Source: a virus
Lineage: Duplodnaviria > Heunggongvirae > Uroviricota > Caudoviricetes
Strand: one strand, 5' to 3'
Length of the DNA stretch: 64,000 bases
IMG/VR virus record: IMGVR_UViG_2740892442_000004
Position 1 is the first letter of the stretch, and each line of letters starts with the position of its first letter. Below are positions 3,160 through 11,812 of this stretch, in pieces. Under the pieces are notes generated by a model, which ran no database searches, had not been told where the DNA came from, and worked only from the letters and a program-made list of their open reading frames with translations. Both the position numbers and the translations under genes were made by a program.

Positions 3160-4341
3160 ATGAGCCTTTATGTTATATCAACATTTAGGTTGGTCACAAT
3201 ATTGCCTGTTAAAAGTGGAATTATCGTGAGCGAGCTGAAAGAGCTAATTACCGAATTAGATTTTGAACAATGGTTGGATACTGAAGGTATCGTTTATCGA
3301 CGTGGAAGCGTGAGTGCTCGCGGTCGTGAAGTGAATATCAAGGAGTGTCCGGTATGCGGCAGCTCCAACTGGAAGGTATATTTCAATCTGACCAGCGGCG
3401 TAGGCAAATGCTTCGCTGGTGATCATCCCGAAGAGATTCAGTTCAATAAGCTGGTTTTCCTCAAGCACTACAGCGGCAAATCACGACGACAGTTCGAGGA
3501 ATATGTGCAGAACGCTCTTCTTTCGCAGGGGTGGGCACCAAAGAAAGAAGAAATAGTGCTTGCAAGCACAGTCGAGTTAGAGGGGCCACTTGCACTCCCT
3601 CGTCATTACGAACTTCCTATAGATGGCCGTCTTCCAGACTATCTGGTTGAACGAAACATATCGCCTGAAATGGCAAAGTATTTTGACCTACGATACTGCG
3701 TCGAAGGTAAGCACGCCTATGTAGATCCGTATACAGATCAGGTTAAAGGACAGATATTCGATATGCGAATACTGATACCGGTTTACGATCTGGATGGGGT
3801 AATGAAGACATTTCAGGGACGAGACATTACCGGTACAGCAGAACGCCGCTACCTCTTCCCTATGCAGCTGCCGGCGTCGGGTAAGTTTCTCTACAACGGC
3901 CACAACGCAGTCGGGAAACAAACAGTCGTTGTGTGTGAAGGGGCATTTGACGTAATGGGCGTGAAGCGAGCCATCTTCGACGAAAAGACGCTGAGGGATT
4001 ATGTAGAGCCAATTGGCACGTTCGGGATGCACTTGTCCGGAAATATGAATGAGGACGCTGAAGATCAGTTGGGCGCGTTCCTGACGCTCAAGGCGCGTGG
4101 ATTACGCAACGTCATCATGATGTGGGATAGCGAGAAGCAAGCGATCCGCAACACCATGTCGGCGGCCAAACGCCTCACCAGCATCGGACTAAATGTCAAA
4201 GTGGCCTGTCTGGGCGAAGAAGGTCTCGACCCCGGCGACGCGACGCCAGAGCAGATCCTCAAAGCCTATTATCGTGCCAAGCCTTACTCCAAACAGCTGG
4301 AGTTAAAATGCAAAGTGCTCGGTATCAAGTCACTCGTGTAG
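3160..4341 (+). CDS. DNA primase (zinc ribbon + TOPRIM)
   Basis: CPVCGSS...CFAGDH zinc-binding motif and VVVCEGAFDVMG TOPRIM-like motif; start set at ATG after conserved AAAGAAAAACACATG leader (ORF opens at 3088). Confidence 0.65.
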   Translation: MSLYVISTFRLVTILPVKSGIIVSELKELITELDFEQWLDTEGIVYRRGSVSARGREVNIKECPVCGSSNWKVYFNLTSGVGKCFAGDHPEEIQFNKLVFLKHYSGKSRRQFEEYVQNALLSQGWAPKKEEIVLASTVELEGPLALPRHYELPIDGRLPDYLVERNISPEMAKYFDLRYCVEGKHAYVDPYTDQVKGQIFDMRILIPVYDLDGVMKTFQGRDITGTAERRYLFPMQLPASGKFLYNGHNAVGKQTVVVCEGAFDVMGVKRAIFDEKTLRDYVEPIGTFGMHLSGNMNEDAEDQLGAFLTLKARGLRNVIMMWDSEKQAIRNTMSAAKRLTSIGLNVKVACLGEEGLDPGDATPEQILKAYYRAKPYSKQLELKCKVLGIKSLV

Positions 4342-4342
4342 T

Positions 4343-5395
4343 TTAAGTTGTGGGAGACAGACGGTTCAGGACAAACGCTGCGATATTATTTAGTGCTATA
4401 TTTAGCAAACTTGCATCATATGTTTGGTCGTTATCCTTAGGTTTAAAATTGCTGATACTGACTGTCTCACTGTGCTCATTTTCATAGAAACGTTTACTGC
4501 TTGAATCTAGGCGTTTGAGGACGTAAATTTGCCCAAATTCAATCCACTCACCTTCACCATTGAGTCCGCTCCCTGTTTTGACTGAGATGAAGTACTTTGC
4601 CAGCTTGGTTGTAATGCAGTCTTCATTTTTTTCTATGCAAACCTTAATGCCGGCGGCTTTCAAACTACGATAAATGCTGTTTGGATATGCCCCACTATAG
4701 ATTTCGCTGCTTTCAATGATAATGACGTCGTATTCTTCCTTTGGCTCAATAGATAAAGCTTCAGGCTCCAAATCATCCTTGTGAAAAATAAATCCTAAAA
4801 GACGCTCAAGTTCATCTGTTAATTTGAACATGGGGTTCGCTTGGATCTCGCCAGCCCTGTCTTCGTAGACGAGACCCGAGGTTATGAGCTTATTTAGCGA
4901 TCTCAGAGCCATTCCACTTTTTTGTGATGTGAGGCTAACTTGGGCTAATACAGTTGATTTATAGCCTTTTATTGGCGAGCTTGTTGTGATGTAAAGTTTG
5001 CGCGCATATTCAATATCAAAGCAGGTTAACCCACTCAGTATGTGGATAAAAAATAGTTTTTCATCGTCGTTAAGGCTGCTGCGGGCTAGGCTTACCGTCA
5101 AGCGAATGTAGTATTCTGTTTTCTTGTCTTCATCATCAAGCACGAGCTTTTTGACTAACGCCGAAAAGTGTTCTCTTGAGATATCGACCTCATCGTCGCA
5201 AATTTCACCAATGCCCATAATGTAACGGTTGAATCGATCACGACAAGTCGTCGCATTTATCTCTGAGAACAACGTGAACATTTTTTCCGCTGCCTCAATA
5301 TGAGGTCCAACAAGCGGTATAGATTTGGCAAACGCCAAACCAGTTTCTTTCAATACCTTCCTGTGTTGCATCACGTTTTTGGACAACGTTGTCAT
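4343..5395 (-). CDS. hypothetical protein, AT-rich, opposite strand; possible PD-(D/E)xK-like C-terminal region
   Basis: 350 aa ORF convergent with primase; lower GC than flanks; YDVIIIE...VCIEKNED weakly nuclease-like. Confidence 0.45.
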   Translation of the reverse strand: MTTLSKNVMQHRKVLKETGLAFAKSIPLVGPHIEAAEKMFTLFSEINATTCRDRFNRYIMGIGEICDDEVDISREHFSALVKKLVLDDEDKKTEYYIRLTVSLARSSLNDDEKLFFIHILSGLTCFDIEYARKLYITTSSPIKGYKSTVLAQVSLTSQKSGMALRSLNKLITSGLVYEDRAGEIQANPMFKLTDELERLLGFIFHKDDLEPEALSIEPKEEYDVIIIESSEIYSGAYPNSIYRSLKAAGIKVCIEKNEDCITTKLAKYFISVKTGSGLNGEGEWIEFGQIYVLKRLDSSSKRFYENEHSETVSISNFKPKDNDQTYDASLLNIALNNIAAFVLNRLSPTT

Positions 5396-5578
5396 AGACC
5401 TAAGCCTTGTGTGTTTAACGTATTAGTTAAGTGAAATCATATAGAAGTGACCTGACAGCTACAACTGGACAAGATTAAGAGCATTTTTTATAAACGAAAA
5501 TAAACGCCTACATTGATAAGTAGATACATACTTATATTTCTGTAAGAATATGCTCGACGAAGGAATTGAGGAACCTTT

Positions 5579-9702: not shown

Positions 9703-9777
9703 GATGGTGTAGCTCAGCGGTAGAGCAGTTGGCTGTTAACCAACTGGTCGGTGGTTCGAATCCACCCACCATCGCCA
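9703..9777 (+). tRNA. tRNA-Asn (anticodon GTT)
   Basis: Cloverleaf: acceptor gatggtg/caccatc, D-arm tagctcagcggtagagc, anticodon loop ctGTTaa, T-loop ggttcgaatcc, CCA end. Confidence 0.75.
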
Positions 9778-9782
9778 ATTTA

Positions 9783-9869
9783 GGGGAGTTAGTCCGTAGA
9801 GGTAGCGGTGTAGACTGTAAATCTACTGTCATGGCGACTCGGGTGGTTCGACTCCATCACTCCCCACCA
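9783..9869 (+). tRNA. tRNA-Tyr (anticodon GTA), long variable arm
   Basis: Acceptor ggggagt/actcccc, anticodon stem-loop gtagaCTGTAAAtctac, T-loop ggttcgactcc, CCA end. Confidence 0.65.
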
Positions 9870-9873
9870 AATT

Positions 9874-9949
9874 GCCGGTTTAGCTCAGTTGGTAGAGCAG
9901 TCGCTTTGTAAGCGAATGGCCAGCGGTTCAAGTCCGTTAACCGGCACCA
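9874..9949 (+). tRNA. tRNA-Thr (anticodon TGT)
   Basis: Acceptor gccggtt/aaccggc, D-arm tagctcagttggtagagc, anticodon loop ttTGTaa, T-loop ggttcaagtcc, CCA end. Confidence 0.65.
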
Positions 9950-10269: not shown

Positions 10270-10356
10270 GGAGAGTAGGGAGCATGGTGCTCAAGCGGTC
10301 TTGAAAACCGTCCCATTGTGCAAACGATGATGGTTCGATTCCATTACTCTCCGCCA
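10270..10356 (+). tRNA. tRNA-Ser (anticodon TGA), long variable arm
   Basis: Acceptor ggagagt/actctcc, anticodon stem-loop gcggtCTTGAAAaccgt as in enterobacterial tRNA-Ser(UGA), T-loop ggttcgattcc, CCA end. Confidence 0.7.
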
Positions 10357-10549: not shown

Positions 10550-11812
10550 TTACTTTGCATAGTCGCCCAATTTTAATATTTCGCGCTTATATTCATTAAC
10601 CATGCTACTGGATTCAGTATAAATTCGATTTAAAAGATTATCGTTATCTTTATTCTCATTTATCTTAATGAGTGATAATTTATATTCATAGTCATCAAAT
10701 GCCACAATCAAATGGTGGCCTGGGATTATATCTTCGTCACTCTTGAAGTATATATCTTCAAGTATGTAATCTAGTTGATTAGATTTTCTTTTCTCGATGT
10801 AATCTTCAGCCATAGCTATTACATCATTCCTGTCATTTAACCTGTTTTTTTCGGAAGGCACATCTTCGTAATGTTGCACGATTGAACAACCAATAAGGCG
10901 TGGGATGTAAACGTCAAAATGAGTAACTCTATCATTCGCGGTTTTAAGTAGTTCCTCAAAGTAGTTTCTTACATGTAAAGGCAACTTCTCAAAGTAATCA
11001 TTAATTATAGGAGAACAAGGAGTTTTATAATTCATAAGAACCGACGGTACGAGCTTTGGGTCTCGAAACATCCAGTCCCTTTTAACGTCCGATGGAACAT
11101 AATAACTTTTAATGATATTATCAAAATAATTTATCATTCGAGATTTGAATATTTTGTTGAATCTAAGGTTTATGAATGCATCCAGATAAGGCATATCTGA
11201 ATAAGCATCATCAAAAAATATTTCATCATTGAAAAAATCATATTTATTTAATAAACAACACAGTTTTCCCGAATTAATATGTTCACAATAATCGATCTTT
11301 AATCCAAAGATAGCAATGATCAACTTCATCTGAGGTGGGATTTTGAAAATTAATTGTGACACATACGCTCTTTTTTCCTTTAGACATTCCCCATCAATAT
11401 AAAATGAACTATCCACATACTCAAAAATATTAATAATATGCTTCACATACTGTATTACCTCATGCTGTTTTACCAATGGGTAATATAGTCTATTTAACTC
11501 ATCGCTGTTTAAATTAATTTTGCGTTTATCGATAATTTGTTTTGCAAGAAGACATAGCTCATCATGTTGATTTAATAAGGAATCAAACCATTGTTTAAAT
11601 GCACTCTTTCGCATTTCGAACAATGATTCTGTTGTTAATTGAAGGGCTGAAAAAGCTGCTTTTGCACTTTTTCTCGCTTCGTAGGCATTCCATGCTGTTG
11701 CTATAAAAGCAAATGCTGTAGCCAATGTTCCAACAATTTGACCATTTAAAACAACCCAATCCCAAAAAATCACGGTGAGCAGTAGTATAATAATGAAAAT
11801 TAAAAAAGGCAT
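10550..11812 (-). CDS. hypothetical membrane protein, strongly AT-rich
   Basis: 420 aa; two predicted N-terminal TM helices; GC visibly far below flanks; opposite strand to neighbours. Confidence 0.55.
   Translation of the reverse strand: MPFLIFIIILLLTVIFWDWVVLNGQIVGTLATAFAFIATAWNAYEARKSAKAAFSALQLTTESLFEMRKSAFKQWFDSLLNQHDELCLLAKQIIDKRKINLNSDELNRLYYPLVKQHEVIQYVKHIINIFEYVDSSFYIDGECLKEKRAYVSQLIFKIPPQMKLIIAIFGLKIDYCEHINSGKLCCLLNKYDFFNDEIFFDDAYSDMPYLDAFINLRFNKIFKSRMINYFDNIIKSYYVPSDVKRDWMFRDPKLVPSVLMNYKTPCSPIINDYFEKLPLHVRNYFEELLKTANDRVTHFDVYIPRLIGCSIVQHYEDVPSEKNRLNDRNDVIAMAEDYIEKRKSNQLDYILEDIYFKSDEDIIPGHHLIVAFDDYEYKLSLIKINENKDNDNLLNRIYTESSSMVNEYKREILKLGDYAK

What the first reader, a model, noticed from the sequence alone, without database searches (positions are those of the whole stretch)
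4343..5395. Opposite-strand AT-rich gene wedged between primase and downstream replication genes
This 350 aa ORF is convergent with primase and divergent from the next gene, breaking an otherwise uniformly plus-strand block, and has lower GC than its neighbours. Its C-terminal half contains a D...IEK pattern weakly reminiscent of PD-(D/E)xK nucleases. This is the pattern expected for an inserted accessory gene.
Basis: partly seen in the sequence, partly recalled or inferred. Interest (0 to 1): 0.5.

Follow-up and report, generated by a model that had tools for sequence, protein, structure and literature searches.

The report
Swappable Abi-alpha-like cargo gene in phage-plasmid
The backwards-facing gene is a real, self-contained accessory cassette in a variable slot of an SSU5/pHCM2-type phage-plasmid, and it looks like a distant relative of the Abi-alpha phage-exclusion proteins, not a nuclease or a replication gene.

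Summary
A 350-aa ORF lies at 4343-5395 on the minus strand, with 41% GC against 48-55% in its flanks. It is wedged between the primase gene and the next plus-strand gene of an E. coli SSU5/pHCM2-like phage-plasmid.

It is a cassette (4329-5503) carrying its own upstream region, in a variable slot. The slot is empty in some relatives. In others it holds unrelated minus-strand genes: a Sel1/TPR protein, a DUF4145 protein, or a membrane protein.

The cassette is 99.6% identical to the one in S. Typhi pHCM2, while the backbone genes are only 80-88% identical. Its dN/dS is 0.1-0.18, so it is a functional gene.

The PD-(D/E)xK idea fails. The E and K are not conserved, and the C-terminal domain is an alpha/beta fold of the LptE or anticodon-binding type.

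The protein family is small: 90 clusters among 1.84 billion proteins. It has an invariant DDExxKxxxY motif, a winged helix, and a fast-evolving C-terminal domain that has been swapped between alleles.

Eleven of 65 members give sub-threshold Pfam Abi_alpha hits. A profile-profile comparison with genuine phage DUF4393 proteins gives 62% probability (E 8e-5).

Best reading: an Abi-alpha-like anti-phage gene. Its function is inferred, not shown.

The parts
4329..5503 (-). Accessory cassette: the stretch that replaces 18 bp of an 'empty' SSU5-like relative. It holds the ORF, about 108 bp of its own upstream region, and the last codons and stop of the primase gene.
   Evidence: blastn against the empty-site relative L002 loses homology at 4328 and regains it at 5504. 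The right junction (5504-5507) is shared with L003 and pMT1 L005. The cassette is 99.6% (ORF) and 99.1% (upstream region) identical to pHCM2, while dnaB, primase and ligase are 80%, 88% and 85% identical.
4343..5395 (-). 350-aa ORF (WP_000209842.1, phrog_22938), an Abi_alpha-like protein of unknown function.
   Evidence: The protein is 100% identical in pHCM2. dN/dS is 0.10-0.18. The AF2 model has pLDDT 87.8.
4751..5248 (-). Conserved core, residues about 50-215: a helical region plus a MarR-like winged helix. This is the part that aligns with Abi_alpha (PF14337).
5108..5137 (-). Signature motif DDEDKKTEYY (family consensus DDExxKxxxY). K92 and Y96 are invariant in 65 of 65 members.
   Evidence: In hhalign the motif aligns with the xEExIRxMFAxLIA motif of phage DUF4393 proteins.
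4346..4750 (-). Fast-evolving C-terminal alpha/beta domain, residues 216-350.
   Evidence: Identity is 30-35% here against 66-84% in the N-terminal part of the same protein pairs. P0006 and L042 are chimeras, with a breakpoint near window 4863. Fold hits are aaRS anticodon-binding, LptE, PelC and CadC types.
5396..5503 (-). The cassette's own upstream region (33% GC across 5396-5578), presumed to hold its promoter and ribosome-binding site.
   Evidence: It travels with the gene. It is 99% identical in pHCM2. Positions 5396-5465 align at 74% with the upstream region of the homologue in a lambdoid prophage (L043). The consensus scan called no promoter here, so the promoter is inferred.
5504..5578 (+). 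Conserved backbone region upstream of the phrog_4248 gene. It contains a perfect inverted repeat ATAAGTA-N6-TACTTAT at 5516-5535 and forms the fixed right edge of the variable slot.
   Evidence: About 94% identical in all relatives compared, whatever occupies the slot. The repeat was read directly from the sequence.

Best explanation
The window is part of an SSU5/pHCM2-type phage-plasmid. Between the primase stop codon and the conserved promoter/operator of the next replication-region operon lies a variable slot. Related elements carry different counter-oriented cargo genes there.

In this window the slot holds a 1.18-kb cassette with its own upstream region and one gene. The protein has three parts:
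- an N-terminal pair of long helices;
- a conserved helical plus winged-helix core with an invariant DDExxKxxxY motif, distantly related to the Abi_alpha (DUF4393) family of prophage-encoded abortive-infection proteins;
- a rapidly diverging C-terminal alpha/beta domain that has been swapped between alleles.

The most likely working model is as follows. The gene is transcribed against the direction of the lytic replication genes, so it is made while the element sits as a plasmid. The variable C-terminal domain recognises a component of a superinfecting phage. The conserved core then aborts that infection, which protects the lineage carrying the element.

Shown here: the cassette nature, the variable slot, independent horizontal exchange, purifying selection, the domain architecture, and the remote similarity to Abi_alpha.

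Inferred: expression in the plasmid state, anti-phage activity, the sensor role of the C-terminal domain, and any DNA binding by the winged helix.
For: Identity of the element. The window is 100% identical to E. coli pMB3825A_2 and related to SSU5 and pHCM2.

Variable slot.
- It is empty in L002 and L004.
- It holds a Sel1/TPR protein in L003 and a DUF4145 protein in pMT1.
- It holds an unrelated 388-aa protein with a hydrophobic C-terminal stretch that I read as transmembrane helices in a Klebsiella element.
- 756 plasmids match the 4-kb region, but only 58 cover at least 80% of it. Only about 60 carry a homologue at 57% identity or more.

Sharp, shared junctions.

Separate history from the backbone.
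- The cassette is 99.6% identical to pHCM2 against 80-88% for backbone genes.
- Against the K. oxytoca allele, dS is about 0.8-1.4 while the neighbouring gene is 96% identical.

Mobile cargo in other settings.
- At a prophage end, after the tail spike gene (L015).
- In a Lelliottia chromosome beside a DNA methylase, HATPase_c_3/HEF_HK and Response_reg_2 cluster.
- Between two P4-type integrases, with a GNAT gene and a Fic gene, in Pectobacterium.
- On plasmids beside Ppl plus a P-loop NTPase, retron Ec78, an AIPR/AbiU-like gene, and an AAA_15/21 ATPase plus a ParE toxin-antitoxin pair.

Link to Abi_alpha.
- 11 of 65 members hit PF14337 (best E 8e-6). No other Pfam family is hit by more than 2 members.
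- The matches cover profile positions 3-147 of 196.
- hhalign of the family against nine phage DUF4393 proteins gives probability 62%, E 7.7e-5. The alignment is colinear over about 190-250 columns at relaxed settings, and the motifs correspond.
- Four unrelated control comparisons gave 0.05-0.2%.

What is known about Abi_alpha.
- Abi-alpha of E. faecalis prophage 6 is an experimentally shown abortive-infection gene (PMC6356687).
- A DUF4393 protein is the most abundant phage protein in phiNM1 lysogens (10.1101/2025.10.23.684294).
- In seven of the eight Gram-positive temperate phages whose context I inspected, the DUF4393 gene is likewise counter-oriented to its immediate neighbours; in five of these the neighbours are early or replication genes. 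In the eighth, Streptococcus phage Javan149, it lies in a region of mixed orientation.

Modular C-terminal domain.
Against: The window protein itself has no Pfam, NCBIfam or PADLOC hit. All Abi_alpha hits in relatives are below the 29-bit gathering score.

The close-relative alignments A1 and A3 alone give no signal against DUF4393 (probability below 1%). The link therefore rests on the more distant members of the family.

The family profile hits MarR/SlyA at a similar E-value, so part of the similarity may be generic winged-helix resemblance.

The C-terminal motif conserved in phage DUF4393 proteins (KGxIxLTxFGxxFxxxC) is absent here.

The mechanism of Abi-alpha itself is unknown. No effector domain is recognisable in this protein. 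DefenseFinder reported no defence system in pHCM2-like elements (10.1101/2025.09.12.675607).

Some plasmid homologues sit in an operon with a KfrA-type gene, which points towards plasmid maintenance.

There are no expression or phenotype data for this gene.
Confidence: 0.45

Rival explanations
1. The protein is a DNA-binding maintenance or regulatory factor. In this reading it is a winged-helix protein that works with KfrA-type coiled-coil proteins, or alone, in plasmid positioning, replication control or lysogeny control of the phage-plasmid.
For: The protein has a MarR-like winged helix. It lies among replication genes. In K. pneumoniae IncFIA/IncR, Erwinia and K. oxytoca plasmids, the homologue lies directly downstream of a KfrA_N gene, with a 4-bp overlap in L006. 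Several plasmid homologues lie near par and rep genes.
Against: The gene is absent from more than 90% of SSU5-like replicons, which replicate and segregate without it. There is no KfrA-like gene in the 64-kb window. The family has no similarity to IncP KfrB or KfrC. The KfrA partners are 65-87% identical to each other, so they represent one or two lineages and not a general association. Homologues also occur alone in a prophage end, a chromosome and an integrase island. No operator-like repeat was found in the cassette's own upstream region.
Confidence: 0.2
2. The protein is another kind of conflict or conversion cargo. It could be an anti-defence protein or a host-directed regulator carried as a moron, and not itself a defence.
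For: It sits in the same kind of variable, counter-oriented, AT-rich slot that holds many sorts of morons. No effector domain is recognisable. A winged helix could act on host promoters.
Against: The only family-level sequence link is to an abortive-infection family. Homologues sit beside defence genes on plasmids and chromosomes, where anti-defence genes are not typical.
Confidence: 0.2
3. The protein is a PD-(D/E)xK nuclease.
For: The letters D223 and I254-E255-K256 are present. D223 is kept in 42 of 65 members. There is a weak hit to the Hjc-like protein ST1444 (E 0.3).
Confidence: 0.03

Closest known systems
Abi-alpha / Abi_alpha (Pfam PF14337, formerly DUF4393). Examples: EF2833 of E. faecalis V583 prophage 6, and gp17 of S. 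aureus phages phiNM1 and 80alpha.
   Same: Both are single genes carried by temperate elements. Both are typically transcribed against the surrounding early or replication genes. The cores are colinear and share motifs: an acidic patch followed by an aromatic residue (xEExIRxMFA against DDExxKxxxY), L[ST]xxD, and SIxNLxRLGL against SLNKLITSGL. Relatives give sub-threshold PF14337 hits.
   Different: The window protein gets no PF14337 hit. It is 350 aa, against about 260-300 aa. Its C-terminal alpha/beta domain replaces the KGxIxLTxFG...C tail of the phage DUF4393 proteins. The hosts are Gram-negative and the carrier is a phage-plasmid. No phenotype is known.
Belisama (a DUF2806 protein from Vibrio chromosomal integron cassettes)
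   Same: It is a single-gene anti-phage cassette whose domain is reported to have detectable homology with Abi-alpha (10.1101/2024.07.02.601686). This is a second example of the superfamily acting as mobile defence cargo.
   Different: It was not compared here because no sequence was at hand. No member of the present family hit the DUF2806 Pfam model.
kfrA-kfrB-kfrC plasmid survival operon of IncP-1 and IncU plasmids
   Same: Some plasmid homologues occupy the position downstream of a KfrA_N gene.
   Different: There is no sequence or profile similarity to R751 KfrB or KfrC. There is no kfrA in the window. The gene is dispensable in most SSU5-like elements.
MarR/SlyA winged-helix transcription regulators
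   Different: No Pfam MarR-type hit appears in any of the 65 members. The flanking domains are different. Size and architecture do not match a MarR dimer.

Membership tests
Abi_alpha (PF14337 / DUF4393) | Match to the Pfam model at or above its gathering score (29 bits) | tested here: not met
   The window protein has no hit at E<=0.1. Eleven of 65 relatives hit at E<=0.05 (best 8.1e-6), and all those checked are below 29 bits: P0088 17.6 bits, P0060 13.8 bits.
Abi_alpha (PF14337 / DUF4393) | Profile-profile similarity to genuine DUF4393 phage proteins, colinear over the domain | tested here: inconclusive
   hhalign of A2 against A6 gives probability 61.8% and E 7.7e-5, over 88 columns, or 248 at mact 0.1. 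A5 against A6 gives 48.7%. The close-relative alignments A1 and A3 give below 1%. Four unrelated controls give 0.05-0.2%.
Abi_alpha (PF14337 / DUF4393) | Single gene on a temperate element, counter-oriented to its neighbours | tested here: met
   Window. DUF4393 genes counter-oriented to their immediate neighbours: phiNM1, StB20-like, StauST398-5, Latilactobacillus P1, phi4B1 and IPP23. Javan149 lies in a region of mixed orientation.
Abi_alpha (PF14337 / DUF4393) | Conserved C-terminal KGxIxLTxFGxxFxxxC tail, as seen in the phage DUF4393 alignment | tested here: not met
   The motif is present in all nine phage proteins. In the window protein the C-terminus is a different alpha/beta domain.
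Abi_alpha (PF14337 / DUF4393) | Abortive-infection phenotype: premature lysis and loss of plaquing | not testable with these tools
   Shown only for EF2833 (PMC6356687).
PD-(D/E)xK nucleases | Conserved catalytic D...(D/E)xK residues | tested here: not met
   D223 is kept in 42 of 65 members, E255 in 12 of 65, and K256 is not conserved.
PD-(D/E)xK nucleases | Restriction-endonuclease-like alpha-beta-beta-beta-alpha-beta fold | tested here: not met
KfrB/KfrC (IncP-1 kfrABC operon) | Sequence or profile similarity to KfrB or KfrC | tested here: not met
   hhalign probability is 0.1% or less against R751 KfrC and KfrB.
KfrB/KfrC (IncP-1 kfrABC operon) | Location downstream of kfrA in one operon | tested here: not met
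   There is no KfrA-like gene in the window. The feature is met only for some plasmid homologues.
MarR-type regulators | Winged helix-turn-helix fold | tested here: met
MarR-type regulators | Match to a MarR-family sequence model and MarR-like size and architecture | tested here: not met
   No MarR-type Pfam hit appears in any of the 65 members. The protein is 350 aa with extra N- and C-terminal domains.
Catalogued anti-phage systems (PADLOC-DB 2.0) | Match to any model | tested here: not met
   The window protein has no hit. Relatives give only scattered single weak hits.

The most novel reading that the evidence does not exclude
This small family (phrog_22938) is a previously unrecognised Gram-negative branch of the Abi-alpha superfamily. 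It pairs the conserved DDExxKxxxY plus winged-helix core with an exchangeable C-terminal recognition domain, and it acts as a single-gene anti-phage system. If so, the gap between the primase gene and the phrog_4248 gene in SSU5/pHCM2 phage-plasmids is a dedicated defence hotspot. That would give the 'cryptic' S. Typhi plasmid pHCM2 a phage-exclusion function.
Probability: 0.4. Interest if true: 0.55.

Novelty: new variant of a known kind. Interest (0 to 1): 0.4.

Why it matters
pHCM2-like phage-plasmids are common in S. Typhi, and related SSU5-group elements are common in Shigella sonnei. They are usually called cryptic. A recent survey found no known defence system in the pHCM2 clade.

If this cassette excludes phages, it would give these elements a selectable function. 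It would matter for phage therapy and phage typing of typhoid strains. It would also extend the poorly understood Abi-alpha family to enterobacteria, with a naturally modular pair of core and variable domains. That pairing is convenient for working out how the family senses phages.

Whatever the function, the sharply bounded slot is a useful marker for cargo turnover in SSU5-type elements.

If the gene turns out to be an ordinary regulator, the finding is routine accessory-gene variation.

Tried and rejected
- Direct family assignment failed. Pfam, NCBIfam and PADLOC gave nothing for the window protein. PHROGs gave only an unannotated family. phmmer against PDB sequences gave nothing.
- The word-indexed protein search found only close relatives, even with profiles.
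- The search for related loci with the broad alignments failed because no stretch was conserved enough. With A4 it found one genome locus.
- The KfrC/KfrB hypothesis was rejected by hhalign.
- phiNM1 gp03 was tried first as the DUF4393 protein and did not match. gp17 was the right one.
- tblastn with the distant member P0088 found no record annotated as Abi-alpha among plasmids or phages.
- No operator-like repeat was found in the gene's own upstream region, and the consensus scan called no promoter or terminator there.
- A replication-initiator (Rep, two winged helices) reading was considered. It was dropped because only one winged helix is present and the BFVD Rep hits had probability below 0.3.
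- A HEPN Rx4-6H motif was looked for by eye and is not conserved.

Full report
**What the window is.** The 4-kb stretch around the finding is 100% identical to E. coli plasmid pMB3825A_2 (NZ_CP103696.1, 114 kb). It is related to Salmonella phage SSU5 and to the S. Typhi plasmid pHCM2. The element is therefore an SSU5-type phage-plasmid. The local gene order is a phrog_2500 gene, a DnaB-like helicase, a primase, the target ORF, a phrog_4248 gene, a phrog_5055 gene and an ATP-dependent ligase.

**The observation.** It is correct.
- ORF 4343-5395 on the minus strand encodes 350 aa. RefSeq annotates it as hypothetical protein WP_000209842.1.
- Its stop codon is one base from the primase stop. It diverges from the next gene across 183 bp.
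- GC is 41.4% against 48.5-54.7% for the neighbours, which is the 7th percentile of the window.
- It is a real gene. dN/dS against the K. oxytoca allele is 0.10 for residues 1-215 and 0.18 for residues 216-350. An AlphaFold model built on 65 relatives reaches pLDDT 87.8 and pTM 0.82.

**It is a cassette in a variable slot.**
- Against an 'empty' Enterobacter relative (L002), homology stops at 4328 and resumes at 5504, and 18 bp stand in for 1175 bp.
- The right junction is the same in three different contexts (L002, L003, pMT1). It abuts a conserved stretch containing a perfect inverted repeat, ATAAGTA-N6-TACTTAT, at 5516-5535, upstream of the phrog_4248 gene.
- The slot is empty in L002 and in E. 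coli pTHO-010-2.
- In other relatives it holds unrelated genes:

| Relative | Occupant of the slot | Strand |
|---|---|---|
| pKM35_DHA | 417-aa Sel1/TPR protein | minus |
| Y. pestis pMT1 | DUF4145 protein | minus |
| Klebsiella element (L033) | unrelated 388-aa protein with a hydrophobic C-terminal stretch I read as transmembrane helices | minus |
| pLR-46_1 | a 344-bp unannotated gap after the primase gene; two small ORFs stand where phrog_4248 would be | plus |

- Of 756 plasmids matching the region, only 58 cover at least 80% of it. Only about 60 have a homologue at 57% identity or more.

**The cassette has its own history.**
- Against pHCM2, the ORF is 99.6% and its upstream region 99.1% identical, while dnaB, primase and ligase are 80%, 88% and 85% identical.
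- Against SSU5, only the half coding for the N-terminus aligns at the DNA level (76%), although the flanks are 85-95% identical.
- Within the protein, the N-terminal 215 residues are 66-84% identical among close relatives. The C-terminal 135 residues fall to 30-35% in the same pairs.
- P0006 and L042 are chimeras, with an N-terminus of the window type and a C-terminus of the SSU5 type. The breakpoint is near window 4863.
- A homologue at the end of a lambdoid prophage shares the N-terminal coding half and about 70 bp of upstream DNA (L043). The gene therefore travels with its own expression signals.

**What the protein is.**
- No Pfam, NCBIfam or PADLOC model matches it. PHROGs places it in the unannotated family phrog_22938.
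- An exhaustive profile search of 1.84 billion cluster representatives finds only 90 relatives, nearly all 330-390 aa.
- Across 65 of them, K92 and Y96 are invariant inside a DDExxKxxxY motif. L170 and G174 are nearly invariant.
- The model shows two long N-terminal helices, a helical bundle, a winged helix (residues about 125-205), and a C-terminal alpha/beta domain.
- The family profile hits SlyA/MarR structures at E 8e-5 over the winged helix.

**The nuclease idea fails.** D223 is kept in 42 of 65 members. E255 is kept in only 12, and K256 is usually R, P or L. The two motif halves sit on strands separated by a helix.

**The link to Abi-alpha.**
- When all 65 relatives were scanned against Pfam, 11 hit PF14337 (Abi_alpha, formerly DUF4393), with a best E-value of 8e-6. 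No other family was hit by more than two members. All hits are below the gathering score.
- Two examples cover profile positions 3-147 of 196. These map to window residues about 52-181 and include the signature motif and the winged helix.
- To test this independently, I took phiNM1 gp17. RefSeq names the identical protein in 80alpha and other phages 'DUF4393 domain-containing protein'. I aligned gp17 with eight diverse phage homologues.
- hhalign of the family against that alignment gives probability 62% and E 7.7e-5. It is colinear over about 190-250 columns at relaxed settings. DDExxKxxxY lies on xEExIRxMFAxLIA, and SLNKLITSGL lies on SIxNLxRLGL.
- Four unrelated control comparisons gave 0.05-0.2%.
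- The alignments of close relatives alone give no signal, so the evidence is moderate and not decisive.

**Why this link fits the biology.**
- Abi-alpha (EF2833) of E. faecalis prophage 6 is an experimentally shown single-gene abortive-infection system that causes premature lysis. Its mechanism is unknown (PMC6356687).
- A DUF4393 protein is the most abundant phage protein in uninduced phiNM1 lysogens.
- In seven of the eight Gram-positive temperate phages whose context I inspected, the DUF4393 gene is transcribed against its immediate neighbours. In five of them the neighbours are early or replication genes. In Streptococcus phage Javan149 it lies in a region of mixed orientation.
- Homologues of the window protein elsewhere are lone cargo genes:
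  - after the tail spike gene at a prophage end;
  - in a chromosome, next to a methylase and HATPase cluster;
  - between P4-type integrases;
  - on plasmids, beside Ppl, retron Ec78, an AIPR/AbiU-like gene, or an AAA_15/21 ATPase.

**The main rival.**
- In K. pneumoniae IncFIA/IncR, Erwinia and K. oxytoca plasmids, the homologue follows a KfrA_N gene. This suggests a maintenance role like that of kfrABC.
- However, the family is unrelated to KfrB and KfrC.
- The KfrA partners are close relatives of one another, at 65-87% identity.
- The window has no KfrA gene.
- Most SSU5-type elements do without the gene.

I give the maintenance or regulator reading about 0.2. An unspecified moron or anti-defence role also gets about 0.2, and the nuclease reading about 0.03.

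**Verdict.** The finding is a genuine accessory cassette in a cargo hotspot of an SSU5/pHCM2 phage-plasmid. The best-supported function is an Abi-alpha-like phage-exclusion protein with a conserved winged-helix core and an exchangeable C-terminal domain (confidence about 0.45). Its function is inferred from remote homology, gene position and neighbourhood, not demonstrated. It is best classed as a new variant of a known kind, and its interest is moderate.

Noticed in passing
window 10550-11812 (-): A second counter-oriented cargo-like ORF of 420 aa. It has the lowest GC in the window (31.8%, GC3 29%). It belongs to phrog_18168 (unknown function) and has no Pfam or PADLOC hit. It lies just after a tRNA cluster.
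   Followed up: partly
window 9703-9949 and 10270-10356 (+): Four tRNA genes carried by the phage-plasmid: Asn-GTT, Tyr-GTA, Thr-TGT and Ser-TGA.
   Followed up: partly
window 5516-5535: A perfect 7-nt inverted repeat, ATAAGTA-N6-TACTTAT. It is conserved in every SSU5-like relative compared and sits exactly at the fixed right edge of the variable slot, upstream of the phrog_4248 gene. It is probably an operator or promoter element of the downstream operon.
   Followed up: partly
L033 5392-6558 (-) (K. pneumoniae pKp_SB617_1), L003 3332-4585 (-), L005 5098-5820 (-): The same slot in relatives carries unrelated minus-strand genes. These are a 388-aa protein with a hydrophobic C-terminal stretch that looks like transmembrane helices, a Sel1/TPR protein, and a DUF4145 protein in Y. 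pestis pMT1 with a weak PD-T7-4 hit (E 0.009). All are candidate conflict genes.
   Followed up: partly
L024 829-1686 (-) (phiNM1 gp17); L025-L028, L031, L032: In Gram-positive temperate phages, the DUF4393/Abi_alpha gene is usually transcribed against the genes around it. This positional signature could be used to find more such genes.
   Followed up: partly
L006 5297-6978, L008 4778-7032, L009 5100-6786: On some enterobacterial plasmids, the homologue forms an operon with a short KfrA_N coiled-coil protein. In K. oxytoca there is also an extra 167-aa protein. The operon lies next to an AIPR/AbiU-like gene or to Ppl plus a P-loop NTPase. This could be a multi-gene version of the system.
   Followed up: partly
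window about 13.3-14.9 kb, 21.3-22.7 kb, 45.1-47.3 kb, 50.8-53.0 kb, 58.8-60.4 kb: Further stretches with GC below 42% in 1053-bp windows. They may mark other cargo slots.
   Followed up: no
L001 6708-7506 (just upstream of the window in the same plasmid): A GNAT/DUF1778 toxin-antitoxin pair on the minus strand. Similar pairs sit near homologues of the target gene in K. quasipneumoniae. In Pectobacterium a GNAT gene lies nearby.
   Followed up: no
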